Virus record (IMG/VR): IMGVR_UViG_3300020045_002971
Span: 1-35,503 of that record
Length of the DNA: 35,503 nucleotides
Strand: one strand, 5' to 3'
Source: a virus
Lineage: Duplodnaviria > Caudoviricetes
Part shown: in pieces, positions 3,490 to 35,503 of the stretch
How the letters are laid out: the number at the start of each line of letters is the position of its first letter
Numbering within the stretch: position 1 is the first letter of the stretch
Made by a program: the position numbers and the translations under genes
The notes under the pieces: generated by a model
The model's database searches: none
Told to the model about the DNA's origin: nothing
What the model saw: only the letters and a program-made list of their open reading frames with translations

Positions 3490-3798
3490 TTATGGTTTAA
3501 AAGATTGGTAGCCTAGCAAGTAGTCGAGCAGTCGGCTAATGATTAAATTTGATGCGATTAAAAGTAGTGCCGTTGAATGGTCATTCGTTACGCAAAAATA
3601 AACGATTGCGTTCACAACCCCAATCCAGAACGACGTGCAGAAATAACAGCCGATCCATTGCCAGAAGAAAGGCAGTTCGTGTTTAGGTGTCCACTTCTGG
3701 AAGCCGAGCCATTTCAAAATGATGTGATGAGGCTTGACCCAATCAAACCAGATCAACACCTGAAAGGTCACTAATATTTGAAGCGTGGTAATCGTCAT
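3490..3798 (-). CDS. Small membrane protein with CxxCxSFW motif (DUF1360-like)
   Basis: Hydrophobic segments; IGCYFCTSFWIGV. Confidence 0.65.
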   Translation of the reverse strand: MTITTLQILVTFQVLIWFDWVKPHHIILKWLGFQKWTPKHELPFFWQWIGCYFCTSFWIGVVNAIVYFCVTNDHSTALLLIASNLIISRLLDYLLGYQSFKP

Positions 3799-4258
3799 AT
3801 AATTTCTGCTTTGCTAATTTCTTGTAGGTGTAATACTGCCGATCTGATATTCCGATCATGGTAATAACTGCCTTATTGTTATTGCAATTCAAGGCCAAGG
3901 TAAGAATATTTTTTAAGAATAGTAGATCTTCGTCGTCGGTTGGGGTGTTGAGCCACTCGTCTATGAATGCTTTGCCAGGGGAATCAGTCGGGTCATTGAT
4001 AAAAATCATGTCCGATTCTTTGGTGGTCTTGATTTGTTGTGTCGGCTTTGTCTGCCTGTGCCATTCAATAACCTGATTCTTCAATGCCCGAAGAAAATAA
4101 CGCTTGGGATCTTCTGGTAAGAATGTAGTGTCTTGAATTTCCCGCTCCCGAATCTTTAGCCAGACCACGTTGAAAAGTTCGTCAGGGTCTTGCGGGTAGA
4201 TGTTGCGTGCAGCTTGTTTGCACAGTTCAGATTCCGCAATGATTTGGCTTGCTGTCAT
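3743..4258 (-). CDS. ECF-like sigma-70 family factor (putative late-gene sigma)
   Basis: Region-2-like DPDELFNVVWLKI...YFLRALKNQVIEWHR and C-terminal HTH-like VITMIGISDRQYYTYKKLAKQKL; 171 aa. Confidence 0.75.
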   Translation of the reverse strand: MTASQIIAESELCKQAARNIYPQDPDELFNVVWLKIREREIQDTTFLPEDPKRYFLRALKNQVIEWHRQTKPTQQIKTTKESDMIFINDPTDSPGKAFIDEWLNTPTDDEDLLFLKNILTLALNCNNNKAVITMIGISDRQYYTYKKLAKQKLYDDYHASNISDLSGVDLV

Positions 4259-14485: not shown

Positions 14486-16378
14486 TTAGTTTTTAAACGT
14501 GATTACTTGACTCCATTCGTGACGGCAGCCCGGCTCATTTTTATCCGTGTCAGGATTATGATACCAACCACCACGATATGCAAACACGTTGTAGCCTTCG
14601 TTGCCTGAGATACGGTTAATGTCCTCACGGGTGTACAAGCGATTCAATCCCATAAGCGTTTTGCAAAACTCACGGCTTTCGCCTTTGAGTGCCGGCGCAT
14701 TGTCACGTACCCGATACTCATACATAATCTCAATGTCCTCAACTTGGTTCAATGCGTTCTGTGCTTTACCAGCTTTGGTAAGGTCGCCAACTTTATCAAT
14801 TAAATTAAGCGTTGCCAATCGGTTATACATCTTTGCCAGATCAACGCCTGAAATATCAAGCGCCTTTCTAATCGAATCAAAAGATTCACCTTGACTGATC
14901 AGGTTTAGAACTTGCGCCTGTGTGTCGCTGAGGTCGGCGAATGATTTTTTAGCAGAGGATAGTAGATCGTCTTTTGTAAACTCAACACCGTTGATAATCG
15001 CTTGGGAATGCAGAATTGTAAAGTTTTTACGATCAGATCCGCACATTCTTAGACGCTCCAAAATCTTGTCGCTGTCCTCTTGCGCTTTTTTATCCGTGTT
15101 TAGATTAACCTGAAATTGCGGGTTCGTTGGTTCTTTTGGTAAATTCAACACCGGCATTTCAATTTTAATTTCCCCTTCAATTCCCGCGATCTCATTCATG
15201 ATGTAATTAATCACACCAGCTAAATCAGAACGCCTGCCCTCAAAGTAGTTCGATTGCATAATAGCGTAGCCGATTTCTAATTCAGATGCATTAAACGAGC
15301 CATCAGGTTTAACCCCGAATAGCGTAGGCACAACGACCTGATGACCATGTATGGTTGAATCTTCGCTGCCTTTCTTTACGTTGGTGTAGCGGTCAGGTAA
15401 ATTACTACCCGTCTGGCTTTCAATCGTTGGCTTTTCGTCTTGACCGTTACCATAAATAACCATTGATCTACCGGCCTGAAGTGCGCCCGTTGTGCTTGCT
15501 CCTAAATCACGCTCCAAATCTTTTTTATCCTTGTCGTTCTTTGGCTGACCACCCGCCAAGTAAATCAAATTACCAAGTGAAAAGCCGTTGTGAATTTCCG
15601 AGTTCCCGTGAATACCTATCTGGATTCCGGTTTCAATTTGAGTTATCGCGCCACCATAAGGCGGGTCTGGATAGTGACCAGCGTTTAATTCTCTGGCTTG
15701 TGGATTGTCAATTGATGCGCCGCTTTCTTCTTTGAATAATACGAAACACTGCTTTTGATTTGGGTCTTTCGCGTTGAATGGTTTCAATACTTCAAACACT
15801 GGCTTTGAATCCAGCCAGTTTTCAGATATACAAATGTTACCAGACAAATGTAGTTTGCCCTCTTCATCTTTGATTAACTCATATCTGATTTGCTCGTATG
15901 GTATGCGCTCAGATTTCCGGTACTTTTTCTCACCAACAAAGGAAAAGAAACATTTAACAGCAAACCAATTTGATTTTTCGTAATCCAGTGAAAGGTCGTC
16001 AAGTATAGCAGACCAATCTTTATCCTTCGGGCTGGTCTTTTTGTTCTTGAAAAATTCGTCGTAACCGATTTGATTTGGCCCTTCGTAAGTCATTCCGGCC
16101 GATACGGTGAAATGTTTCTTTGCGCGGATAATTCCCGCGTGAATAGGATTGTTTTTGAAAAGGTAATTTAAGAAATAAGAAAACTCGTTACGCTTGCCCC
16201 ACTTCAGGACCATTGAGGTCTTGTCAAACTCTTCAGTTGGCAAAGGAATATTTGAGGCCTTTGCAGACACCATAGCGTAAGAGGTGCCACGATGATTGTT
16301 TGAACCACCCTGACCACCGCGCCCGCCTCTGCGTGTGCGCTTAACCTGTGTATGTTGTGTCTGTTCCGGTTGGCTCAT
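14486..16378 (-). CDS. Portal protein with C-terminal winged-helix and MuF-like extension
   Basis: WGKRNEF...NPIHAGII...IHGHQVVVPTLFGV portal-like core; C-terminal SREFC...YRGGW...CRHEW. Start uncertain (internal MVSAK is an alternative). Confidence 0.8.
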   Translation of the reverse strand: MSQPEQTQHTQVKRTRRGGRGGQGGSNNHRGTSYAMVSAKASNIPLPTEEFDKTSMVLKWGKRNEFSYFLNYLFKNNPIHAGIIRAKKHFTVSAGMTYEGPNQIGYDEFFKNKKTSPKDKDWSAILDDLSLDYEKSNWFAVKCFFSFVGEKKYRKSERIPYEQIRYELIKDEEGKLHLSGNICISENWLDSKPVFEVLKPFNAKDPNQKQCFVLFKEESGASIDNPQARELNAGHYPDPPYGGAITQIETGIQIGIHGNSEIHNGFSLGNLIYLAGGQPKNDKDKKDLERDLGASTTGALQAGRSMVIYGNGQDEKPTIESQTGSNLPDRYTNVKKGSEDSTIHGHQVVVPTLFGVKPDGSFNASELEIGYAIMQSNYFEGRRSDLAGVINYIMNEIAGIEGEIKIEMPVLNLPKEPTNPQFQVNLNTDKKAQEDSDKILERLRMCGSDRKNFTILHSQAIINGVEFTKDDLLSSAKKSFADLSDTQAQVLNLISQGESFDSIRKALDISGVDLAKMYNRLATLNLIDKVGDLTKAGKAQNALNQVEDIEIMYEYRVRDNAPALKGESREFCKTLMGLNRLYTREDINRISGNEGYNVFAYRGGWYHNPDTDKNEPGCRHEWSQVITFKN

Positions 16379-16709
16379 AAGATTCGTTATCTGTAAAGGT
16401 TGCTTGTACTCTGGCTACTCCGTTGGATAGTTGTAGCATTTCTGCGTAGTCTTCATCGCCTGTTGTTGCGCTCTGGTAAATTTCATAAAGGTATTCGCCT
16501 TCGGTTAAATCTAAATCGGTCGGCAGAACTAATGTAAACAAATCATAACGTACATTCTGTTCTGCTGAGTTGACCAGTTCAATCAAATATTCTACCCGTG
16601 TTTGTGCGTGAACAAACCGCCACAGATAAATCGGGTTATCAATGGTCAGAATGTCGTCGCAAACAACGTACATTGAATTACTACTTGCCTTGGTTAGCAG
16701 CAGCATCAA
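16341..16709 (-). CDS. Putative structural protein (acidic, beta-rich)
   Basis: 122 aa between tail tube and portal; GEYLYEIYQ. Confidence 0.6.
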   Translation of the reverse strand: MMLLLTKASSNSMYVVCDDILTIDNPIYLWRFVHAQTRVEYLIELVNSAEQNVRYDLFTLVLPTDLDLTEGEYLYEIYQSATTGDEDYAEMLQLSNGVARVQATFTDNESYEPTGTDTTYTG

Positions 16710-17054: not shown

Positions 17055-17588
17055 TTATGATGCCGGTACAAGAATCGTTTGTACAATCGTGTCACTGATT
17101 GTAAGCGCTCTTGTGGTTTCTTTTCCTTCTAAGTTCAATAAGTGACCGCGTAAGTCTTCATACATTTGACCAGTCGAAGCCTCGGAGGTTGTAACTGCCA
17201 ATCCGTTGATGAATCCGTACGCTTTCCACTTCGCATCTTCGCCAACTGGTCGGGAGAATTTCACAAAGACAATCAACTTTGCACGTCCTGCCTGTTCATC
17301 TAGTTTGGCTGTGACCGCTTCGTCGTCTTTGAATTGAACCATTCCAACGTGTGTACGAAAGTAAGAATTATTTTCACGCGATCCATTTCCGTTGTCGTCA
17401 AATTTTGCCGATTCAAGATCCGGTGTCCACGTATAGGCCTTTGTTCCGTTTACTGTGGTGAGAGCGGTGATAACACCATCTGCGATTGTGTAGGAATTGC
17501 GATTGCATTTATCAAGAACAACAACCGCTTCAACGCCACCATTCTCCCGTTCGCACAACTCTTCATAGTCTGTGAGTGTAACTGCCAT
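17055..17588 (-). CDS. Major tail (tube) protein
   Basis: 177 aa directly after the capsid gene; C..NGGV start, YGFING, STG...D..G..L.L.G.E pattern; followed by a terminator as expected for a high-copy protein. Confidence 0.7.
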   Translation of the reverse strand: MAVTLTDYEELCERENGGVEAVVVLDKCNRNSYTIADGVITALTTVNGTKAYTWTPDLESAKFDDNGNGSRENNSYFRTHVGMVQFKDDEAVTAKLDEQAGRAKLIVFVKFSRPVGEDAKWKAYGFINGLAVTTSEASTGQMYEDLRGHLLNLEGKETTRALTISDTIVQTILVPAS

Positions 17589-17641: not shown

Positions 17642-18685
17642 TTATGATACTGGCGTTAATCTCAGTCTGGTGAAGTAAGCAGGAAATACGTAAGCGATTC
17701 CTGATCTCCATTTCACACCGAAGCGCAATTTTTCGTCGTAATCAGAATACTTCCAAGTGAAGCCGTCTTTGTCATTTTCCAAATCAGTTCCGTAGAACAT
17801 ATATTTGTAACAAACACCGTACACTAAATCAGTACCGTCAAGTTGCGGATAAGAGCGTACGGTTACGTTGGTTGTTGGAAGGGTAAATGATACCTCGCCG
17901 TCTGCCTCTGTTACCGCAAATGTTGCTGAATAATCTTTATCAGCCCAAACCTGATCGATACAAGCACGTGCAGTCTCGTAACCGCAAATGATTTCGTAAC
18001 CTACTGTATCTTTGTGACGTTTAACGATTGTTGGTGACTGATTGAACACGTCCATCAGTACGTCGAATCCGTTAGCCGATGTGATAGTTGTTGCTGCGGT
18101 TGTAACGTAAGCAATATTCAAATCAGCATCAGCCTCCCAACGGGTAGAGAATCCGTTATAATGTACAAGGTCAGTGTTTAATGAAGTCGTGTCACCGTTC
18201 ATCATTAGATTTTCATCCAACTCCTGAGCGCGTTGTTGATAATAAATCAACATTGCATCAGCAAAGTTAGGCGGCTCCTGATCCTGTGCGTTTGCACCAG
18301 CAACGTTCATCAGTTGCGCCCAAACATCGTTCAGATCTTCGTTGCAATACTCTTCCTGAATCTTAACCCTTACCGTTGAGATTGTCTCATCAGTCAAGAT
18401 CATTCCGCCTTCAGGTGTCCAGCCGCAAGTAGAGGCCGCCTGAAGAGTCGGTGTTGAGTTAATCAATTTGATTCTCTCTGATCCTTTCACGCCTGTCATC
18501 ACGTTGATACGTGACTTCAGATTGCCTGTATTAATCAGGTCTTGCATCACGTCTGGCGATTGCTCGTCAACGTAAACTCCTAAATCGGAAACGTCCCAGT
18601 TAAAGGTTTGTTTACCGAAAGAGGCTGTAATTGTAGCCATTCCAGCTATCACTGCGAATGCTAATTTTCCAAATTTCCACTTCAT
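17642..18685 (-). CDS. Major capsid protein
   Basis: 347 aa after protease/scaffold; VMTGVKG, CGWTPEG, EEYCNEDL, MMNGD, MFYGTDL..D. Confidence 0.85.
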   Translation of the reverse strand: MKWKFGKLAFAVIAGMATITASFGKQTFNWDVSDLGVYVDEQSPDVMQDLINTGNLKSRINVMTGVKGSERIKLINSTPTLQAASTCGWTPEGGMILTDETISTVRVKIQEEYCNEDLNDVWAQLMNVAGANAQDQEPPNFADAMLIYYQQRAQELDENLMMNGDTTSLNTDLVHYNGFSTRWEADADLNIAYVTTAATTITSANGFDVLMDVFNQSPTIVKRHKDTVGYEIICGYETARACIDQVWADKDYSATFAVTEADGEVSFTLPTTNVTVRSYPQLDGTDLVYGVCYKYMFYGTDLENDKDGFTWKYSDYDEKLRFGVKWRSGIAYVFPAYFTRLRLTPVS

Positions 18686-20116: not shown

Positions 20117-20210
20117 GTTCCCTTCTCACTTTAACGGAACAAAAGGAATTTTAATTGAGCCTTATAATGAAAGCAGAAGTGAGAAGCTGCCGGATTTATG
20201 AGGCTTTTTT
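20117..20210 (+). ncRNA. Structured leader / small RNA with complementary loops and a terminator
   Basis: Loop CTTCTCACTT (20122-20131) is the exact reverse complement of loop AAGTGAGAAG (20177-20186); the second hairpin ends in a T tract. Confidence 0.65.
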
Positions 20211-20220
20211 ATTTTGCATT

Positions 20221-20394
20221 ATGACGTATAAAATATACACGAATAAAGGAGATGAAATAGAATTTTACCAAGTTGAAGATTGTATAATGATCGAGATTGG
20301 CGATGGTGACACAAGTGAGATTGCCTCACTTTCAAAAGACGAGGCTATGGATTTAGTGCGAGGTCTCAATTCTTTATTAAGCAACATAGGATGA
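20221..20394 (+). CDS. Small acidic hypothetical protein (57 aa)
   Basis: ATG at 20221 (MTYKIYTNKG); ATGA overlap with the initiator. Confidence 0.65.
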   Translation: MTYKIYTNKGDEIEFYQVEDCIMIEIGDGDTSEIASLSKDEAMDLVRGLNSLLSNIG

Positions 20395-21158
20395 ACAGTT
20401 ACGAGTTGTCACGAAGGTTTTTTGATTGGTGCTTTGAGAATCCGGAAAAGATAAAGCCACTCCATTCGGCTATTTATTTTTTTGCGCTTGAGCATTGGAA
20501 TAGGTTGGGTCATAAATCAAAGTTTGGTTTCCCCTCTCAAATGACTATGGATGCGGTCGGAATTAGGAAGTACCAGACTTACGGTAAAGCATTCAACGAT
20601 CTTATTGATTGGGGGTTCTTTGAGTTAATCGAGAAAAGCAAAAATCAATATTCGGCAAACATTATATCGATAAGTGCTACGCCAAAAAACGGCATAGCAC
20701 GGGGCAAAGCACTGGACAAAGCAACGATAAAGCACGGGTCAAAGCAACGGCAAAGCACAAGGCAAAGCATGGACAGTATAGATAAACCAATAAACCAACA
20801 AACCAATAAACCAATAAACCAAGAACCATTTCTTTTAAAAAAAGAAACAAAAAAAACTTCAAAGAAAATTAAGTTGGTTGATTTTTCAATTCCAATTGAG
20901 ACAAGAATAAATTTATTCAGGGAGGCATTGGTTGAATTTGAACCTGAATTTGGAAAGCCGTTGATTGAAAACTTTTTCTTGTACTGGTCAGAGAAAACAC
21001 TTTCCGGAAAAGAATTGAGATTTGAGATTCAAAAAACTTGGGAGTTGAAACTTCGATTGGCGCGGTGGAGAAATAATAATTTCGGTAACAATACCGCGCA
21101 AAAAGAAAACCCCCTAGGCACGCACCGCATAGGCCAAGACTTCACAAAAGGATTGTAA
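20391..21158 (+). CDS. Replication initiator protein (lambda O-like organisation)
   Basis: N-terminal winged-helix-like region, central iteron-encoded linker, C-terminal FFLYWSE...RLARW; precedes a DnaC-like ATPase. Confidence 0.8.
   Translation: MNSYELSRRFFDWCFENPEKIKPLHSAIYFFALEHWNRLGHKSKFGFPSQMTMDAVGIRKYQTYGKAFNDLIDWGFFELIEKSKNQYSANIISISATPKNGIARGKALDKATIKHGSKQRQSTRQSMDSIDKPINQQTNKPINQEPFLLKKETKKTSKKIKLVDFSIPIETRINLFREALVEFEPEFGKPLIENFFLYWSEKTLSGKELRFEIQKTWELKLRLARWRNNNFGNNTAQKENPLGTHRIGQDFTKGL
20691..20850. repeat. Putative replication origin (two iteron sets plus A-rich tract) inside the initiator gene
   Basis: AAAGCA cores at 20706, 20718, 20729, 20741, 20752, 20764; AAACCAAN x5 at 20784-20823; A/T tract after. 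Confidence 0.75.
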
Positions 21159-21161
21159 ATT

Positions 21162-21773
21162 ATGGAAGAAAAGAAACAAAACAGAATCAATGCGCTGGCC
21201 GCAATTCGTGAAGCCGGTTCAAGCATTGAGCCGTACTTCACACTAAACGAAGATCAGGAAGAGTATTATCTAAATCTGATGGCGTACTTCATGGACAAGC
21301 CCCGCAACCTTGACAGATTAAAGGGACTGTTGATACTTGGAACCGTTGGTACAGGTAAGACAATGTCAATGGAAGTCATGCGTAAAATGTTTGGCGGGTT
21401 TCAGATGGCGAACACCCGACACATTGCTAGGGACTACGCCATTGATGGATTGAAAACCATTGACAAATACGGGCGTGAATCATTCGGCAGGACACCCGCC
21501 GGAGTGATTGATTACAAAAAGCCAATGAAATATTGCTTTGATGATTTCGGTTTGGAATCAACAAACGTAAAGGTTTACGGGAATGTCGCAAACATCATGG
21601 AAGAAATTATTCACGACCGTTATGAGCAATTTCTTAAACACGGAATGATGACTTACGCAACCTCAAACCTTGACGCGGAACAAATCAAAAAATACTACGG
21701 CGAACGCACGACAGACCGCCTTCGTCAAATGATGAACGTTATTTCGTTAACCGGAAAATCTATGAGACAATGA
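21162..21773 (+). CDS. DnaC/IstB-like AAA+ ATPase (helicase loader)
   Basis: GTVGTGKT, YCFDDFGLE, TSNL, YGERTTDRLRQM. Confidence 0.88.
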   Translation: MEEKKQNRINALAAIREAGSSIEPYFTLNEDQEEYYLNLMAYFMDKPRNLDRLKGLLILGTVGTGKTMSMEVMRKMFGGFQMANTRHIARDYAIDGLKTIDKYGRESFGRTPAGVIDYKKPMKYCFDDFGLESTNVKVYGNVANIMEEIIHDRYEQFLKHGMMTYATSNLDAEQIKKYYGERTTDRLRQMMNVISLTGKSMRQ

Positions 21774-22384
21774 AACCACTAAAAATATCCGAACTAAAAA
21801 ACTCAACCCCGATAGATCAGTTACTCACTGACTTACTGAGAAATTCATCCCACAATCAACCGGACAAAGCAACCTTCGCAACGATGCTTAAATCAAATTT
21901 CGGATTCATGTACATTGATGAGATCCGGCGAATATTCAAGCTATTCGATTCGGGCGGGTTCACTGCTGAAACAGACGACACACACACCTTCAACGAATGG
22001 TTTTGCCGTGTCATTGCGGGCCACAAAAAATTCAAAGAGCAAACCGTAAAAGAAGTTTACCGGCCAGCCGACCACAACTTGCACGAACTGTTTCAAAAGA
22101 TGTGGGATGAATCAATTAAAATCAGTCAGTTTCAGTTCAGGCCAGACGTTGCGGTTTATGGTTACGACCAGATCAAACAGCGCGGAGAAATTCCAAACGT
22201 TGAGATTGAAAAGTCAAAGGAGTTCAAGAAATTGGAAGGTAAATTTCTCCAGGCAAAAAGAGACAACGGGGCAACGCTTTACAACCTCACTTACCCGCTC
22301 AACATGGAAGCGTACAAACGCCACGTGAAGATTGAGATATTCAAGAATTATTTTACTAACTTTATCAAAACACCAACGACATGA
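21770..22384 (+). CDS. Hypothetical protein
   Basis: 204-aa ORF, ATGA-coupled. Confidence 0.75.
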   Translation: MKPLKISELKNSTPIDQLLTDLLRNSSHNQPDKATFATMLKSNFGFMYIDEIRRIFKLFDSGGFTAETDDTHTFNEWFCRVIAGHKKFKEQTVKEVYRPADHNLHELFQKMWDESIKISQFQFRPDVAVYGYDQIKQRGEIPNVEIEKSKEFKKLEGKFLQAKRDNGATLYNLTYPLNMEAYKRHVKIEIFKNYFTNFIKTPTT

Positions 22385-22455
22385 AAGACCGTACATTTTT
22401 TATTTGGTCGACATCAATAATGATTGCGCTGTGGATTTTTAACTAAAATTATTTG

Positions 22456-22656
22456 ATGAAACTATTTGAAATCGAGCCAGAGAAACCCGTTGAGGGATTG
22501 ACTTGTAAAACTTGTGAGCATCGTGAACGTTGGGCTTTTGGTTCGGCTGTGTTTCAGTATTGTGCAGTAAGAAAGTCAAACAGAACAAGCAACGGTCAAT
22601 TGAAAATTAAATGCAAAACCCCTGCCTGTTTGAGTTATAAACCAGAAACAAATTAA
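22456..22656 (+). CDS. Small Cys-rich (putative zinc-binding) protein
   Basis: CKTCEH...YC...C...C. Confidence 0.65.
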   Translation: MKLFEIEPEKPVEGLTCKTCEHRERWAFGSAVFQYCAVRKSNRTSNGQLKIKCKTPACLSYKPETN

Positions 22657-22659
22657 CCC

Positions 22660-23148
22660 ATGAAAAAACTAATAATCTTTTTAGCCTTGTGCGGAATTGC
22701 TTGTAGTCTTACCGGAATCTATTTAGTATCTGGATTAAGAACGGTAAGACCAAAGGCTGACAGACTCGAATCAGAAATGATCTGGCCGTCAAATGAGTTG
22801 ACAAAGGAAAACGTCTATGCTGAGATTATGCGGTGTGATATAAAGTTCTCTGACATTGTTTTACGTCAGGCTTTGCTGGAAACCGGACACTTCACATCAA
22901 AAAACTGTTTGGAACGAAACAACTTATTTGGAATGAAGGGTGGCGACAAGACAAACGAAAATCCCTCAGGTTACCGCATTTTCTTACACTGGAGGCACTC
23001 AATCCAAAATTATAAGGAATGGCAAGCAAAAAGAATTTCAGACGATTGTAGCGATTGCTATGAGTTCCTTAAACGTTTTGGGTACTCTGAGAATCCAGAG
23101 CATTACGATTCGCTGTTGAGAGGGATTGATGTTAAGATAAATATTTGA
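22660..23148 (+). CDS. GH73-like glucosaminidase-domain protein with N-terminal signal/anchor
   Basis: QALLETG, NNLFGMK, YSENPEHY; MKKLIIFLALCGIACSLTGIYLV. Confidence 0.8.
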   Translation: MKKLIIFLALCGIACSLTGIYLVSGLRTVRPKADRLESEMIWPSNELTKENVYAEIMRCDIKFSDIVLRQALLETGHFTSKNCLERNNLFGMKGGDKTNENPSGYRIFLHWRHSIQNYKEWQAKRISDDCSDCYEFLKRFGYSENPEHYDSLLRGIDVKINI

Positions 23149-31145: not shown

Positions 31146-31400
31146 TTATTCTTTTAATTCGATTAGATGAGACGGATCAATTTCTTCAATTTCATAATTT
31201 ACAAATCCTGCTTTCTTCTTTTCAGGAACTATTCTAAACTCAATCTCACCATGCCAAGTCGTTTTGAATTCACCATTTGTAAAATACGACAACTCATAAA
31301 CAACGTGTGCCTCACGAATACATACACCAGTTACCAATGCTTCAATCTTTCCAATTACGGTTTCAACCTTGGTGCCATGCTTAACTATTTTTAGAGCCAT
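31146..31400 (-). CDS. Hypothetical protein
   Basis: 84-aa ORF overlapping the upstream GT and 2 nt from the chaperone start. Confidence 0.7.
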   Translation of the reverse strand: MALKIVKHGTKVETVIGKIEALVTGVCIREAHVVYELSYFTNGEFKTTWHGEIEFRIVPEKKKAGFVNYEIEEIDPSHLIELKE

Positions 31401-32106
31401 ATCTCAATTGAAAAATTTCGTTTGCAATCTGATTCTGTCTTGGCGTTCCTTTCGATGCCTCGGTAAAGAAAATTGATTCTTTGTTGTCAATGTGACCTAT
31501 CCAATTTGGAGCGTGACTAATGACTCCCATTTGCTTGTTCTGTTTGGCCGCCTCAAGTGAAAACACTAGATCACTCATTCTTTGATCTGGTGAGTTTGCT
31601 AATCCTTTGGGATGGAAATAACGGGTATCGAATCCGGTTACACCGGTGCCAACAACATCAACAATCTCGTCGTGAATAACCCCGTGAATGCAGTGAAAGA
31701 TTTTGTGATCCGTGTAGTAATTAAGTCCAGTTCCGAGTAATTGCCGCCCGTGAAATGATATGATGCACTTGTAGTGATCAATAGCAGCTTCCAATCTTTT
31801 GCGATAATCTGGTGGATAAATCAAGTCATCGTCAAGGGTGCAATATTTTTCAGGGTGTTCCACCGTGTCAAGAAAAATAAACTTGCCGTTGTCGGTGTGG
31901 TTTGATGATGCGATGCATGCAGTGATTTTAATTGGTGATTCAAAATCGAGATCGTGAAATCCTTCGCCAATATGTTTGACAGGCCAATCGTTAAAGCATA
32001 CCCGAACCTCATCAAATTGCCCTTCGATACTTTTAAGCATTCGTTTAAGGCTTTCCTTTCTTGGCGGGTAGGTAGCTATGTTTGCGGTTACTTTCATTAG
32101 AAACAA
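31381..32106 (-). CDS. Glycosyltransferase, GT-A fold (GT2-like)
   Basis: ANIATYPPR, DNGKF, YCTLDDDLIYPPDY, GTG, MSDL; true start may be MKVTAN at 32097. Confidence 0.85.
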   Translation of the reverse strand: MFLMKVTANIATYPPRKESLKRMLKSIEGQFDEVRVCFNDWPVKHIGEGFHDLDFESPIKITACIASSNHTDNGKFIFLDTVEHPEKYCTLDDDLIYPPDYRKRLEAAIDHYKCIISFHGRQLLGTGLNYYTDHKIFHCIHGVIHDEIVDVVGTGVTGFDTRYFHPKGLANSPDQRMSDLVFSLEAAKQNKQMGVISHAPNWIGHIDNKESIFFTEASKGTPRQNQIANEIFQLRYGSKNS

Positions 32107-33164
32107 TATTTTTTAAAGAACGTGTAAGGTACAATCTTCATTTTAGCCATGATCCAGATCAACGGTCGGTAGCGTTTGAAGTTGTATGTCTTGAAATCTT
32201 TATGCGTGCGCTTTTCGTTGGTGATTAAACTGAAATCAATATCCTTAAACTTTGCCAGATCAACCACTCCCTTATGATTGAAAATGGTTCGAGCCTCTTC
32301 CTTTGAAATCATTCCAGATCTGACCTGAGCCGAAAGGTAAACGATGCGTTTGTCAATCTTGAATTTGTTTGGCAGCAAATAAGCGCCGACAAACTCAGTA
32401 TAAATATTCTCAGCGTGCTTGCCTCCGTATGGTCGCCAGTCGCAGTACGAAATCATTTCGGCTTCCAATAGGCTGCGATCAGTCATGTAGTGAAACGGCC
32501 TGATATTCTTGATTCCTTTGAGTGAGTAAATGATTTGATCCTTAAAAGTAAATAGCGGGTAATTGGTTAATTCTTTGCGGGTGTACCAACGATAAACAGA
32601 ACGAATGTATTCAGCATCCATGTACGTCCAGCCTTTCGGCGTTGATCCTTCTTCACGGAAATCATGTCCGTTCAAAATATATTTGATACCGTACTTATCA
32701 GCCGTTTGATACATCAACTTAGTCATCGCAATGTCATTCGGGATATCAGCGTCAGGAACGCCAGCACAAAGAAAGGCATCGTTCAAAGTATCGTATTCGT
32801 CCTTGTTGACTGTGTACGTAATTGAATCCACGCCAAGGCGCTGAATCAAATTGCTCATGTTCTTTTTTGCAATCTCTGAGTTCCAATGATTATCAAAGTG
32901 GATAACAAGCGGTTTAAGGTTCCACCATTTAACAGCGGCATAAAGCATTGCACTTGAGTCCTTGCCGCCTGAGATACCGATAATACAATTGTACTTGCCC
33001 TTCTGTTTGCGAACCTTTACAAGTTGCTTTTCAAAGTCAATCGGGTTGGATTGCTTTTCCAGAGTGTCGTGAATATCACAGTACTCACATTGAGTTTCTC
33101 CGATCTTTGCTATGTCTGAGGTAAACAGACAGCGAGGGCATTCCTCTAAGGCTCCTTTTTCCAT
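32097..33164 (-). CDS. N-acetyl sugar amidotransferase (WbuX/WbpG-like PP-loop ATPase)
   Basis: N-terminal CPRC...CEYC, YNCIIGISGGKDS, PLVIHFDNHW, YGGKHAEN, LSAQVRSGMISKEEA. Confidence 0.88.
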   Translation of the reverse strand: MEKGALEECPRCLFTSDIAKIGETQCEYCDIHDTLEKQSNPIDFEKQLVKVRKQKGKYNCIIGISGGKDSSAMLYAAVKWWNLKPLVIHFDNHWNSEIAKKNMSNLIQRLGVDSITYTVNKDEYDTLNDAFLCAGVPDADIPNDIAMTKLMYQTADKYGIKYILNGHDFREEGSTPKGWTYMDAEYIRSVYRWYTRKELTNYPLFTFKDQIIYSLKGIKNIRPFHYMTDRSLLEAEMISYCDWRPYGGKHAENIYTEFVGAYLLPNKFKIDKRIVYLSAQVRSGMISKEEARTIFNHKGVVDLAKFKDIDFSLITNEKRTHKDFKTYNFKRYRPLIWIMAKMKIVPYTFFKKYCF

Positions 33165-33733
33165 TGGTAAATTTTATAAAGTGCGTCATTTCCGCTTTCC
33201 ATTTGCAAACCTACAAATTCAAATCCAAACGATTTATAATCATGTCCGTAATAGAACTGACCCTTAATGTCCGTCGTCTCACAAATAATAATTGAATGGT
33301 TGGCTATGCGCTTAAATTCTTGCACAATATCGGAAATATCTTCGATGTGGCAAAGCACTGAGGTTGTTACGATAATATCAAACTGAGTGATCCGGCATAG
33401 GTGGTACTCATCGCCCAGTATCAACATATCAATTTGATTCTTTGCCTTTGCGTGAATGATATTCAAGAAACTCATATCAATTCCGCAAGCCGTTAAGCCC
33501 TTGATTGAATCGCGCAAGTACTTCAGATTCTTGCCAACACCACAACCAAAATCTAAGACTGACCTCGGACTGTTTGATATTACAAAATCGTTCATCATTT
33601 CATCAAGCGGTGCTATCTCATCGTTTGCTTGGTAGTTATGGTAAAAACTTTTCGGGTGCATTGTTGTTTTATTTAATTGGGGTGGAAATCGAGGTACATC
33701 ATTTGGATGCTCTAAACCATAGCTTCGTTTCAT
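33146..33733 (-). CDS. Class I SAM-dependent methyltransferase
   Basis: VLDFGCGVG, GIDMS, FDIIVTTSVLCHI. Confidence 0.9.
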   Translation of the reverse strand: MKRSYGLEHPNDVPRFPPQLNKTTMHPKSFYHNYQANDEIAPLDEMMNDFVISNSPRSVLDFGCGVGKNLKYLRDSIKGLTACGIDMSFLNIIHAKAKNQIDMLILGDEYHLCRITQFDIIVTTSVLCHIEDISDIVQEFKRIANHSIIICETTDIKGQFYYGHDYKSFGFEFVGLQMESGNDALYKIYQWKKEP

Positions 33734-34438
33734 TTAAAAAATTATTTTATGTTCAGGAAATTCTTTATCAAGCCAATCCGTTTCGAGTCTCTTTGAGAAT
33801 GCTGGTACTTTGTTGAGCCAATGATCTTCAAACTTATGAAGATTATCCCAACGATTTGTGGATATGCTTAGTGATTTGATATGATCGCCAGTGATCAGTT
33901 TCATCTTGCCGCCGTTGTCTCTGACTTTTAAATACATTTGCCAGTCAAGGGAATGATTGGCGCCTTCATAAAATGGCTTCCAGTCGAATGAGTCCATAAT
34001 CTTTGCCGACACTATGCGCCCGATTCCAATTGGTTCGTATTGACGCTCACCTTTACCATAACCAGACCACCAGCAAGAACGCAATGATGTGCCAATGTCA
34101 AGCATGTAAAAGTCAGGCTTACCAATCATATCGTACTCGCCCAAATAAGGAAGCGACTCATCAAGCCAATTGTCACTGAGCCAGTCAGAAGATCCAACAA
34201 ACAGCAAAGCGTCAGGCATCAACTCACGGGCGGCAACAAATCCAGCGTTCCACTTCTTACCAAGCGGTTTGTTCTCGTGCATGATGAACATTGCGCCAGC
34301 ATCTGTGCAAGTGTTACGCTCTTCTTGACTGCCAACGCATACGACGGCTGAAACTTTATTCTTATTCAGTAACCTTTGAATCGTTTGTTTAAGCAAGGGC
34401 AAGCGACCATGACACGCAACTACTGCAACTACTTTCAT
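33734..34438 (-). CDS. Glycosyltransferase-like protein, GT-A fold
   Basis: VACHGR, NKPLGKKWNAG, LLFVGSSDW (degenerate DxD), EPIGIGR, SLD. Confidence 0.75.
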   Translation of the reverse strand: MKVVAVVACHGRLPLLKQTIQRLLNKNKVSAVVCVGSQEERNTCTDAGAMFIMHENKPLGKKWNAGFVAARELMPDALLFVGSSDWLSDNWLDESLPYLGEYDMIGKPDFYMLDIGTSLRSCWWSGYGKGERQYEPIGIGRIVSAKIMDSFDWKPFYEGANHSLDWQMYLKVRDNGGKMKLITGDHIKSLSISTNRWDNLHKFEDHWLNKVPAFSKRLETDWLDKEFPEHKIIF

Positions 34439-35163
34439 TTACTGATTAATTTTGTGGTTTTTCTGTGTTCCTTGTGCATCACTGACTCATGATCCCCATG
34501 AAAAGCAAGCGATATGTCAGGCAGCATCATAGGGCAGCCAAGCGCACGAAGTTTCTGAGTCATTTGATAACCTACGCCACTTGATTTGTCTGGACGGTCG
34601 AACCATGCTGAAGTCACTGGTTCAATGTCGAACGCTTGCAAGGTTGTTCTATTGGTCACAAATGCCCCGTCAACGTAATCACATTGTTGCCATACTCGAC
34701 CAGCCAAGGTAAAATCTTCTTGAATCGGTTTGTATTGCCCCCATCGATAACACTCTCCTGCATTCAGTAGGTTAAGTGCAAAGAGCCTATCAGTCCAGCC
34801 TTGCTTCGTGATCTCTTCAATGGCTTTCAAATCAATGTTGCTAACATCGTCAGGCAGAAAGCAAAAGTATTCATGATCAGTACCGAGTGCAATCTGACGA
34901 GCGAGTAGCCACTTTTTCCAGAATCCTTGTTTGCCTTCGTGGATGGTGCGGATTATCTCGTCACACTGAAAGCAGTACGGACCTATGTTTCTTGTGGGGC
35001 TACCTAACCAATCACTACCGTCATCAATAACTATGATTTGTCTATTTGAAGACGTAAGAACAGTGTACCCATGTTCATCAACTGACTTGTTCATCGCGCT
35101 TATCTCGTTAATCAGCGCCTTCAGCATCTGCTCCCGATTGTAGGTGAAGATTACGAACAGCAT
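34435..35163 (-). CDS. Glycosyltransferase, GT2-like
   Basis: IFTYNREQML, IIVIDDGS, YFCFLPDD, SSGVG, HGDHES; ATG at 35163. Confidence 0.85.
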   Translation of the reverse strand: MLFVIFTYNREQMLKALINEISAMNKSVDEHGYTVLTSSNRQIIVIDDGSDWLGSPTRNIGPYCFQCDEIIRTIHEGKQGFWKKWLLARQIALGTDHEYFCFLPDDVSNIDLKAIEEITKQGWTDRLFALNLLNAGECYRWGQYKPIQEDFTLAGRVWQQCDYVDGAFVTNRTTLQAFDIEPVTSAWFDRPDKSSGVGYQMTQKLRALGCPMMLPDISLAFHGDHESVMHKEHRKTTKLISK

Positions 35164-35164
35164 A

Positions 35165-35287
35165 CTACCACAATTCAAACATCAACCCAACACAATAAAT
35201 AATCCCGCAGATAATCGCCCCAGCGAAAATTAATACACAGCCGTTTGCGGCTTCTTTGTCGCCGGGCTCTTTTAGATTTTGTTTCAT
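35165..35287 (-). CDS. Small single-TM membrane protein (40 aa)
   Basis: Not in track. MKQNLKEPGDKEAANGCVLIFAGAIICGIIYCVGLMFELW; ATGA overlap upstream and 1 nt from the GT start. Confidence 0.6.
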   Translation of the reverse strand: MKQNLKEPGDKEAANGCVLIFAGAIICGIIYCVGLMFELW

Positions 35288-35382
35288 AAAGTATCTGTTT
35301 TAATTTGATTTTCTACCCATTGCCAAATTGATTGTCTGTAAGCAGCAGCAGCAGCAGCATCAGCAGCAGCAGCAGCAGCAGC
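35284..35382 (-). CDS. 3' part of the junction-spanning Imm5-like / Ala-Tyr-Asp repeat protein
   Basis: AAAAAAADAAAAAAYRQSIWQWVENQIKTDTL-stop, in frame with 462..1 after removing the 121-bp overlap. Confidence 0.8.
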   Translation of the reverse strand, partial: AAAAAAADAAAAAAYRQSIWQWVENQIKTDTL

Positions 35383-35503
35383 ATAAGCAGCAGCAGCAGC
35401 ATAAGCAGCATAAGCAGCATAAGCATAAGCATCAGCATAAGCAGCAGCAGCATAAGCAGCATAAGCAGCATAAGCATAAGCATCAGCATAAGCAGCAGCA
35501 GCA
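35383..35503. repeat. 121-bp terminal direct repeat (right copy)
   Basis: Identical to 1-121. Confidence 0.9.

What the first reader, a model, noticed from the sequence alone, without database searches (positions are those of the whole stretch)
31381..35287. Five-enzyme glycan-building cassette among packaging and tail genes: candidate virion glycosylation system
Seen: a small TM protein, a GT2-like enzyme, a GT-A-like enzyme, a SAM methyltransferase, an N-acetyl-sugar amidotransferase and a second GT2-like enzyme are translationally coupled. They occupy about 11% of the genome between terL and the tail chaperone. None of the enzymes has an evident TM segment. I see no flippase or GtrAB, no nucleotide-sugar synthesis genes, no base hydroxymethylase and no DNA polymerase. 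Established: WbuX/WbpG-type enzymes aminate or amidate sugars of O-antigen and flagellar glycans, normally with HisH/HisF-like partners that are absent here; GT genes beside structural genes glycosylate virions in some mycobacteriophages. Inference: the phage builds a methylated, amidated oligosaccharide on its own particle from host nucleotide sugars. Alternatives are host surface-glycan remodelling or DNA modification. This is my best candidate for an undescribed system in a Bacteroidota phage.
Basis: partly seen in the sequence, partly recalled or inferred. Interest (0 to 1): 0.85.

Follow-up and report, generated by a model that had tools for sequence, protein, structure and literature searches.

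The report
Phage amidino-sugar capsid coating cassette
An uncultured phage carries five soluble sugar-handling enzymes among its particle-building genes; in related phages a serine ends both the capsid and the tail-tube protein wherever one of these enzymes is present, so the phage likely sugar-coats its own shell, probably with a positively charged amidine sugar known from bacterial surfaces.

Summary
The cassette is real, and virion glycosylation is the best reading (about 0.8), though no glycan has been observed. The last gene is not GT2: it is a KfiA/heparosan-synthase-type HexNAc transferase (profile E 8e-35, TM 0.85). The phage's capsid and tail-tube proteins both end in Ser. Among 95 related capsid lineages, all 36 carrying this gene end the capsid in Ser (tail tube 32 of 32), against 1 of 7 and 0 of 7 without detected glycosyltransferases. 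Only 3 independent contrasts back that link. Capsid and tail-tube serines switch together (6 of 6 informative independent pairs, p 0.03). This matches mycobacteriophage C-terminal glycosylation, but the enzymes show no sequence match to Che8's. The WbuX-like amidotransferase travels with one GT-A partner (70 of 70 and 60 of 60 loci), without a glutaminase, across several phage architectures; it likely makes an acetamidino sugar. Against: WbuX-only lineages lack the terminal Ser, so that branch may have another acceptor. The small membrane gene is not conserved. The scan has noted Ser-plus-glycosyltransferase cassettes on other phage genomes, but no look-alike of these proteins. New variant of a known kind.

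The parts
34435..35163 (-). GTa, GT2-like GT-A glycosyltransferase of a virus-dominated family (longest ORF starts at 35178; likely start ATG 35163)
   Evidence: PF00535 E 4.3e-4, 20.7 bits, under cut-off 23.3; Atlas neighbours are viral GT2-like clusters; no PDB profile hit
33734..34438 (-). GTb, GT-A fold transferase with the DxD position changed to G-S-S-D; constant partner of the amidotransferase
   Evidence: AF2 pLDDT 93.6; Foldseek top hits SpsA/GT2-type, TM about 0.6; motif in alignment; pairing
33146..33661 (-). Class I SAM methyltransferase (longest ORF starts at 33733); alternates with a GT-B gene in the slot between GTb and WbuX
   Evidence: PF13489 E 1.4e-12; TIGR03587 E 3.4e-9, under cut-off; slot tally
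32097..33164 (-). WbuX-like N-acetyl-sugar amidotransferase, phage clade; four Cys and the SGGxDS loop invariant
   Evidence: TIGR03573 E 3.7e-48, 164.7 bits, cut-off 203.2; alignment; best PDB hit 8WEX
31381..32097 (-). GTc, KfiA/heparosan-synthase-type N-acetylhexosamine transferase (longest ORF starts at 32106); candidate priming enzyme
   Evidence: AF2 pLDDT 86.1; Foldseek 8viw E 1.5e-19, TM 0.85, and KfiA 5z8b; profile E 7.8e-35 and 1.1e-29 with DDD motif aligned
17642..18685 (-). Major capsid protein (assigned by position after the prohead protease and by size), ends in ...TPVS; terminal Ser is the predicted acceptor
   Evidence: translation; PHROG 11320 of unknown function; co-variation with GTc
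17055..17588 (-). Probable tail-tube protein (assigned by position and size), ends in ...VPAS; terminal Ser is the predicted acceptor
   Evidence: translation; Ser177 invariant in 9 close relatives; co-variation
35165..35287 (-).
   Evidence: hydropathy 2.63; no tblastn hit (E 1e-3) in 468 fetched loci

Best explanation
The five genes encode soluble sugar-modifying enzymes in the late gene block and likely build a short sugar chain on the C-terminal serine of the capsid and tail-tube proteins. Shown here: the genes, their folds and families, the terminal serines, the co-variation of the serines with GTc, and the fixed GTb-WbuX pairing. Inferred: GTc would use a host UDP-N-acetylhexosamine and is the likeliest enzyme to put the first sugar on the serine; GTa would extend the chain; the WbuX-like enzyme would use ATP and free ammonia (or a host glutaminase) to turn an N-acetyl group into a positively charged acetamidino group, probably on the nucleotide sugar; GTb would transfer that sugar; the methyltransferase would cap it, either on a hydroxyl that a GT-B enzyme extends in relatives or on the amidine nitrogen. 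The inner genes vary between relatives like a serotype locus, so the coat is likely under diversifying selection (masking from host or grazer recognition, or changed adsorption; untested).
For: Terminal Ser on capsid in 36 of 36 and on tail tube in 32 of 32 GTc-bearing lineages, against 1 of 7 and 0 of 7 in lineages where no glycosyltransferase was found. Capsid and tail-tube Ser agree in 84 of 87 lineages; independent pairs 6 same, 0 opposite, 2 tied, p 0.031. Twelve other protein families in GTc-bearing records end in Ser 8 of 265 times. An unrelated HK97-type phage with GTa and GTc also ends both proteins in Ser (G112). Eight HK97-type records with GTb and WbuX and a second GTb-family gene inside the head-neck genes end the capsid in Thr (8 of 8) and the tail tube in Ser/Thr (7 of 7 closed). 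Some records place GTc between the tape measure and the protease-capsid genes (G042, G125). Relatives fill the slot with GT25, GT11, sulfotransferase, FkbM methyltransferase, hexapeptide acyltransferase, DegT aminotransferase and sugar N-formyltransferase genes. GTb-WbuX pairing 60 of 60 and 70 of 70. Precedent: glycans at the C-termini of capsid and tail tube in mycobacteriophages (passage in PMC12619734).
Against: No glycan, transcript or particle has been observed; no cultured relative was found. The GTc-to-Ser link has only 3 independent contrasts (3 of 3, p 0.25), and 45 of 95 lineages have unknown gene status. Only 2 of the 7 GT-less lineages have a record with terminal repeats, and Pfam misses this phage's own transferases. 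G016 and G017 end in Ser/Ser without GTc (they have a GT2 and a GT-B-like gene), so GTc is not the only possible primer. The solved relatives of GTc act on polysaccharide, not protein (PDB titles). The large lineage with only GTb and WbuX ends in ..SPN and ..QSPxx, not Ser (13 capsids, 11 tail tubes), and G136 has GTb, GT-B and WbuX with neither protein ending in Ser/Thr. The WbuX-like protein is under the family cut-off. Surface exposure of the C-termini was not modelled.
Confidence: 0.6

Rival explanations
1. Split function: GTc and GTa glycosylate the terminal serines, while GTb, the methyltransferase and the WbuX-like enzyme form a separate module that decorates another target (an internal Ser/Thr, another virion protein, or packaged DNA).
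For: The GTb-WbuX pair moves as its own unit and occurs without GTc. Four of 6 complete close relatives lack WbuX but keep Ser/Ser. WbuX-only lineages lack terminal Ser and G136 has no Ser/Thr end.
Against: In this phage and in G009, G012 and G047 the pair is nested directly before GTc in one run of abutting genes. The WbuX-only lineage has a Ser-Pro a few residues from the end of both capsid and tail tube, which could be a shifted acceptor. HK97-type carriers end both proteins in Thr/Ser.
Confidence: 0.2
2. The cassette remodels the host surface (LPS, capsule or host glycoproteins) to block superinfection or alter recognition.
For: The closest characterised enzymes act on O-antigen and capsule (PMC10607449; KfiA and heparosan synthase). 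Cellular WbuX homologues lie in LPS-type loci.
Against: No flippase, GtrAB, membrane anchor or integrase was seen; the genes are in the late block; a scan of prokaryotic genomes with the capsid alignment found no prophage. It does not explain the serines.
Confidence: 0.08
3. The cassette hypermodifies phage DNA with a sugar chain against restriction.
For: GT-A enzymes glycosylate phage DNA in other systems (mentioned in PMC12619734 and PMC10202952 passages; Pyle et al. 2024 recalled), and late-expressed DNA modifiers exist (Mu mom, recalled).
Against: No thymidylate-synthase-type hydroxymethylase in 0 of 33 near-complete records (control rang in 10 of 14). No TET/JBP hit in 33, but that control rang nowhere, so inconclusive. 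No DNA methyltransferase or polymerase among 41 window proteins. It does not explain the serines.
Confidence: 0.07

Closest known systems
Mycobacteriophage virion O-glycosylation (Che8 gp108-110; Freeman et al. 2023, Cell Host Microbe 31:1216, PMID 37329881; paper not held, seen only through passages in PMC12619734, PMC11256854, PMC13445384; the serine detail is recalled)
   Same: Several soluble phage glycosyltransferases plus a methyltransferase domain, no export machinery, capsid and tail tube as predicted targets at their C-termini.
   Different: No sequence match between GTa, GTb, GTc or the GT-B profiles and Che8 gp108-110 (best E 0.45). Host is probably Gram-negative Bacteroidota. Adds a KfiA-like transferase and an amidotransferase. 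Not shown chemically.
N-acetyl sugar amidotransferases, TIGR03573 (E. coli O145 WbuX, P. aeruginosa O5 WbpG, LpNASAT 8WEX; PMC10607449)
   Same: PP-loop SGGxDS, two CxxC pairs, best family hit at E 3.7e-48.
   Different: Phage clade scores 145-174 bits, under the 203.2 cut-off, while 3 cellular homologues pass. No class I glutaminase in 25 carrier records. Fixed partner is a GSSD-motif GT-A gene.
KfiA and heparosan synthase GlcNAc-transferase domain (PDB 5Z8B, 8VIW; CAZy GT45, family number recalled)
   Same: Fold (TM 0.85) and motifs DNGKF, DDD, HG, GTG, MxD.
   Different: Stand-alone, phage-encoded, no capsule export genes; tracks a protein terminus, suggesting a protein or short-glycan acceptor (inferred).
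Amidine N-methylation by Campylobacter PtmH and the Legionella ORF 8 methyltransferase (passages in PMC3766260)
   Same: A methyltransferase beside an amidino-sugar pathway.
   Different: Homology to these enzymes was not tested; no nonulosonic acid genes here; the slot alternates with a GT-B gene, which fits O-methyl capping equally well.

Membership tests
Phage virion C-terminal O-glycosylation systems (Che8 type) | Phage-encoded soluble glycosyltransferases without export genes | tested here: met
Phage virion C-terminal O-glycosylation systems (Che8 type) | Capsid and tail tube end in a hydroxyl residue | tested here: met
   ..TPVS and ..VPAS; co-variation. Protein identities rest on gene position and size.
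Phage virion C-terminal O-glycosylation systems (Che8 type) | Enzymes homologous to Che8 gp108-110 | tested here: not met
   best E 0.45 with four profiles: works like Che8, not an orthologous set
Phage virion C-terminal O-glycosylation systems (Che8 type) | Glycan found on virion proteins, dependent on the genes | not testable with these tools
   needs mass spectrometry; phage is uncultured
TIGR03573 WbuX/NASAT | Score above curated cut-off 203.2 | tested here: not met
   164.7 bits; five viral relatives 144.5-174.1
TIGR03573 WbuX/NASAT | PP-loop SGGxDS | tested here: met
   SGGKDS; invariant in 14 of 14
TIGR03573 WbuX/NASAT | Tetracysteine motif CxxC..[GN]xCxxC | tested here: met
   four Cys invariant in 14 of 14; the G/N two places before the third Cys is missing in this protein and present in some relatives
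TIGR03573 WbuX/NASAT | HisH/HisF-like ammonia-supplying partners nearby (recalled as usual, not obligatory) | tested here: not met
   PF00117 in 0 of 25 records, control 14 of 14; HisF not searched separately
TIGR03573 WbuX/NASAT | ATP-dependent acetamidino formation | not testable with these tools
   needs an assay
KfiA/heparosan synthase-type HexNAc transferases | Full-length sequence and fold match with DxD motif | tested here: met
KfiA/heparosan synthase-type HexNAc transferases | UDP-GlcNAc donor and glucuronic-acid-terminated acceptor (recalled) | not testable with these tools
   no uronic-acid partner identified; acceptor may differ
GT2 (for GTb) | GT-A/SpsA fold | tested here: met
GT2 (for GTb) | Canonical DxD metal-binding motif | tested here: not met
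   G-S-S-D at the aligned position
Phage DNA glycosylation systems | Hydroxymethylase of thymidylate synthase type | tested here: not met
   0 of 33 records
Phage DNA glycosylation systems | TET/JBP dioxygenase | tested here: inconclusive
   0 of 33, but no positive control rang
GtrAB serotype-conversion systems | Flippase, bactoprenol transferase and membrane GT | tested here: not met
   no such Pfam/PHROG hits, no membrane segments in the enzymes

The most novel reading that the evidence does not exclude
A large group of uncultured Bacteroidota-type phages coats capsid and tail with a variable, self-made glycan 'serotype'. A capsule-polymerase-type (KfiA-like) enzyme has been turned into a protein-priming transferase for C-terminal serine, and a glutaminase-free amidotransferase with a dedicated DxD-less transferase adds a cationic acetamidino sugar, giving virus particles a charge-tuned sugar coat.
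Probability: 0.35. Interest if true: 0.85.

Novelty: new variant of a known kind. Interest (0 to 1): 0.68.

Why it matters
Phage virion glycosylation has been shown chemically for a few mycobacteriophages. This case extends the same signature to a widespread phage group of probably Gram-negative hosts, with unrelated enzymes and a natural gain-and-loss control. It names the acceptor residues and a candidate priming enzyme, so it can be tested by co-expression without culturing the phage. A cytoplasmic enzyme that glycosylates a protein's last serine would be a useful tool. An amidino sugar on a virus particle would change particle charge and could matter for adsorption, decay and grazing in the environment. 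The phage amidotransferase clade is large (top 120 hits at 59-100% identity), and where sources name its members they call them hypothetical or, once each, PAPS reductase, QueC or TilS.

Tried and rejected
Cultured-phage searches with WbuX, capsid, a distant capsid, GTc and GTa found nothing. A scan of prokaryotic genomes with the capsid alignment found no prophage. Scans for more GT-less controls gave little: two alignments were too diverse to search, one query returned only four known loci, one none. QueC/7-deazaguanine or TilS reading of the WbuX-like gene: rejected; TIGR03573 164.7 bits against TilS 26.3, no QueC hit. Nucleotidyltransferase reading of GTb (weak CTP_transf_3 hit in one relative): rejected; structural top hits are glycosyltransferases. 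GT2 label for GTc: rejected. Orthology to Che8 enzymes: not found. Terminal Ser as a general family trait: rejected; 34 of 147 full-length distant capsid representatives end in Ser and close sister lineages differ. PDB profile searches for GTa and the GT-B gene gave nothing; the GT-B label rests on a recalled motif seen in the alignment. No complex prediction or read mapping was run.
Full report
Observation. The window is a complete virus record with a 121-nt terminal repeat, 35,382 bp when closed. It has terminase, portal, protease, tape measure, lysis and recombination genes of a small tailed phage. The host is probably Bacteroidota: the best cultured matches to its RecT are Cellulophaga phages at 53% and only 2 of 25 gene starts have a Shine-Dalgarno-like word; this is an inference. 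The six ORFs of the finding are present on the minus strand, abutting or overlapping, and make up 11.0% of the genome; none of the five enzymes has a membrane segment. The 40-aa membrane ORF has no homologue in 468 fetched loci and is set aside.

What the enzymes are. GTa (34435-35163) is a weak GT2 match whose nearest Atlas clusters are viral. GTb (33734-34438) folds as an SpsA/GT2-type GT-A domain but has G-S-S-D where DxD aligns. The methyltransferase is class I; relatives start at the Met at 33661, and the upstream residues match a separate 86-aa ORF in L381. The 355-aa protein matches TIGR03573 at E 3.7e-48 but under the cut-off, as do 5 of 5 viral relatives tested, while 3 of 3 cellular ones pass. 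It keeps four Cys and SGGxDS, the motifs that PMC10607449 (part 1 of 4 of the text read) gives for enzymes that convert N-acetyl to acetamidino. GTc (31381-32097) has no Pfam hit but matches heparosan synthase and KfiA over its whole length by structure (E 1.5e-19, TM 0.85) and by profile (E 7.8e-35 and 1.1e-29).

A variable cassette in a fixed slot. Eighteen viral loci share the capsid closely. All 6 complete ones have glycan genes between terminase and tail chaperone, but only 2 have WbuX. GTa and GTc usually flank the slot. Inner genes include GT25, GT11, sulfotransferase, FkbM methyltransferase and hexapeptide acyltransferases. G016 and G017 have a GT2 and a GT-B-like gene (label by eye, no Pfam hit) and no GTc.

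The acceptor signal. The window's capsid ends ..TPVS and the next gene, the probable tail tube..VPAS; both assignments rest on position and size. I gathered 199 closed capsid sequences from all fetched loci and grouped them into 95 lineages at 95% identity. In the 87 with a closed tail tube, both end in Ser in 52, neither in 32, capsid only in 3, tail tube only in none. On a tree built without the last 8 residues, 8 independent pairs gave 6 same, 0 opposite, 2 tied (p 0.031; quick tree, some long branches flagged). By gene content I labelled 36 lineages GTc-bearing (most found by a GTc search that does not look at the capsid; two labelled from a GTc-like end fragment judged by eye), 7 GT-less, 6 GTb-WbuX only, 1 other GT, and 45 unknown and not counted. 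GTc-bearing: capsid Ser 36 of 36, tail tube Ser 32 of 32 (4 truncated). GT-less: 1 of 7 and 0 of 7. Independent contrasts number only 3 (3 of 3, p 0.25). GT-less means that terminase runs straight into the chaperone and that PF00535 (not all records), my profiles and a Pfam scan of ORFs of 140 aa or more found nothing; only G032 and G037 have terminal repeats, the rest are partial, and Pfam misses this phage's own GTc. Background: 8 of 265 unique ends in 12 other families (a 13th, the small gene before the portal, 8 of 18) and 19 of 248 ORFs in six complete relatives.

Other capsid families. G112, an HK97-type phage with GTa, a methyltransferase and GTc, ends capsid and tail tube in Ser. Capsid-sized genes in G080, G100, G104, G108 and G127, all GTc carriers, end in Ser, but those assignments are by position only. 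Eight HK97-type records with GTb and WbuX and a second, GSDD-motif GTb-family gene inside the head-neck genes end the capsid in Thr (8 of 8) and the tail tube in Ser or Thr (7 of 7 closed); two more were truncated, and I sampled no GT-less HK97 control.

The amidine module. Of 69 viral loci with a WbuX relative, 60 have GTb just upstream and the other 9 end within 0.9 kb. Of the best 80 of 253 GTb loci, 70 of 70 with 1.2 kb or more downstream have WbuX. Many loci are near-identical, so these are not independent counts. In the 72 with both genes the slot between holds a GT-B-like gene (33), a methyltransferase (24, of two families only 21-27% alike) or nothing detected (15), never both once the L381 hit is read correctly. 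That exclusivity suggests alternative fates for one position (inference). G129 inserts a DegT aminotransferase and a sugar N-formyltransferase there, which points to nucleotide-sugar chemistry. No class I glutaminase was found in 25 carrier records, 17 of them at least 90% complete. The 8 cellular homologues found are 35-40% identical; 5 have HisH/HisF-like neighbours, recognised by eye. A protein search gave 2,188 hits at E 1e-10 among 7,998 scored candidates, cellular members included; the top 120 are 59-100% identical.

Results against. The large lineage with GTb and WbuX but no GTc ends in ..SPN and ..QSPSI/QSPVV/QSPAV (13 capsids, 11 tail tubes): a shared subterminal Ser-Pro, but not a terminal Ser. 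G136 has GTb, GT-B and WbuX with ..SLAY and ..LELP ends. So the terminal Ser follows GTc, not WbuX, and the amidine branch may have another acceptor. G016 and G017 show that Ser/Ser can go without GTc. GTc's solved relatives build polysaccharide. For the DNA rival, 0 of 33 near-complete records have a thymidylate-synthase-type gene; the TET search was empty but had no positive control.

Mechanism. Most likely, late in infection the cytoplasmic enzymes add a HexNAc-initiated chain to the last serine of capsid and tail-tube subunits, extend it (GTa), add an acetamidino sugar made by the WbuX-like enzyme and transferred by GTb, and methylate it. Gene identities, pairing and serine co-variation are shown; donors, order, linkage, the ammonia source and the purpose are inferred. 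I put virion glycosylation at about 0.8, the whole cassette acting on that one glycan at 0.6, a split function at 0.2, host-surface remodelling at 0.08 and DNA modification at 0.07.

Known systems and literature. It works like the mycobacteriophage system of Freeman et al. 2023. That paper was not held; I saw passages citing it in PMC12619734 (C-termini of capsid and tail tube), PMC11256854, PMC13445384 and PMC12582341. The serine detail is recalled. It is not an orthologous set: no profile matched Che8 gp108-110. N-methylation of amidino sugars has precedent (passages in PMC3766260). PMC10202952 (passages) shows the usual default reading of phage glycosyltransferases as DNA or cell-wall modifiers. 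Pyle et al. 2024 was not held and is recalled. Searches (listings only) showed no paper on a phage-encoded N-acetyl-sugar amidotransferase or on virion glycosylation in Bacteroidota phages; the library lacks most subscription journals and I opened no supplements, so this is not proof of absence. Earlier notes of this scan describe terminal-Ser cassettes in other phages (unchecked, seen after my own); sequence look-ups with WbuX and GTc found no look-alike.

Verdict. Real, coherent and testable: a new variant of a known kind, with an unrelated enzyme set, a probable new host phylum, a gain-and-loss control and a candidate amidino-sugar decoration. Interest 0.68.

Noticed in passing
window junction, minus strand, about 1-560 joined to 35284-35503: A 219-aa open frame with a low-complexity Ala/Tyr/Asp repeat spans the terminal repeat, between terL and the cassette; the record's ends fall inside the repeat, so the repeat copy number is uncertain. 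Relatives G009 and G012 go from terL to GTa without it, which supports the closure by synteny.
   Followed up: partly
L454-L459, L066, L003 (G134, G130, G128, G132, G135, G131, G069, G047): HK97-type phages carry a GSDD-motif GTb-family gene inside the head-neck genes and end their capsids in Thr: a candidate Thr-specific priming system.
   Followed up: partly
L167-L179, L465 (G049-G070, G140): A large lineage with only GTb, an optional GT-B or methyltransferase, and WbuX has a Ser-Pro near the end of both capsid and tail tube; in some members only two enzymes remain, a minimal system.
   Followed up: partly
window 16341-16709 (-) and relatives: The small gene before the portal ends in Ser in 8 of 18 GTc-bearing sequences and 0 of 9 others; possibly a third acceptor in some lineages (not in this phage).
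   Followed up: no
window 20155-23148 (+): A replication block and a glucosaminidase-domain gene sit on the opposite strand between tape measure and protease; other relatives put glycosyltransferase genes in this same slot (G042, G125, G136).
   Followed up: no
window 3743-4258 (-): Weak ECF sigma-70 match (TIGR02937 E 2.7e-4) heads the late block here and in relatives; candidate late regulator of the cassette.
   Followed up: no
L463:7927-9185 (G129): DegT-type aminotransferase and sugar N-formyltransferase inserted between GT-B and WbuX in a phage with a weak crAss-type capsid match that ends in Ser.
   Followed up: partly
L153:9527-10258 (G027): A GT-less relative encodes a Mom-family protein and a C5 cytosine methylase.
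   Followed up: no
L271:4428-6207: A Clostridia MAG has WbuX followed by a methyltransferase fragment similar to the phage one, with no glutaminase gene seen in the 7-kb contig.
   Followed up: no
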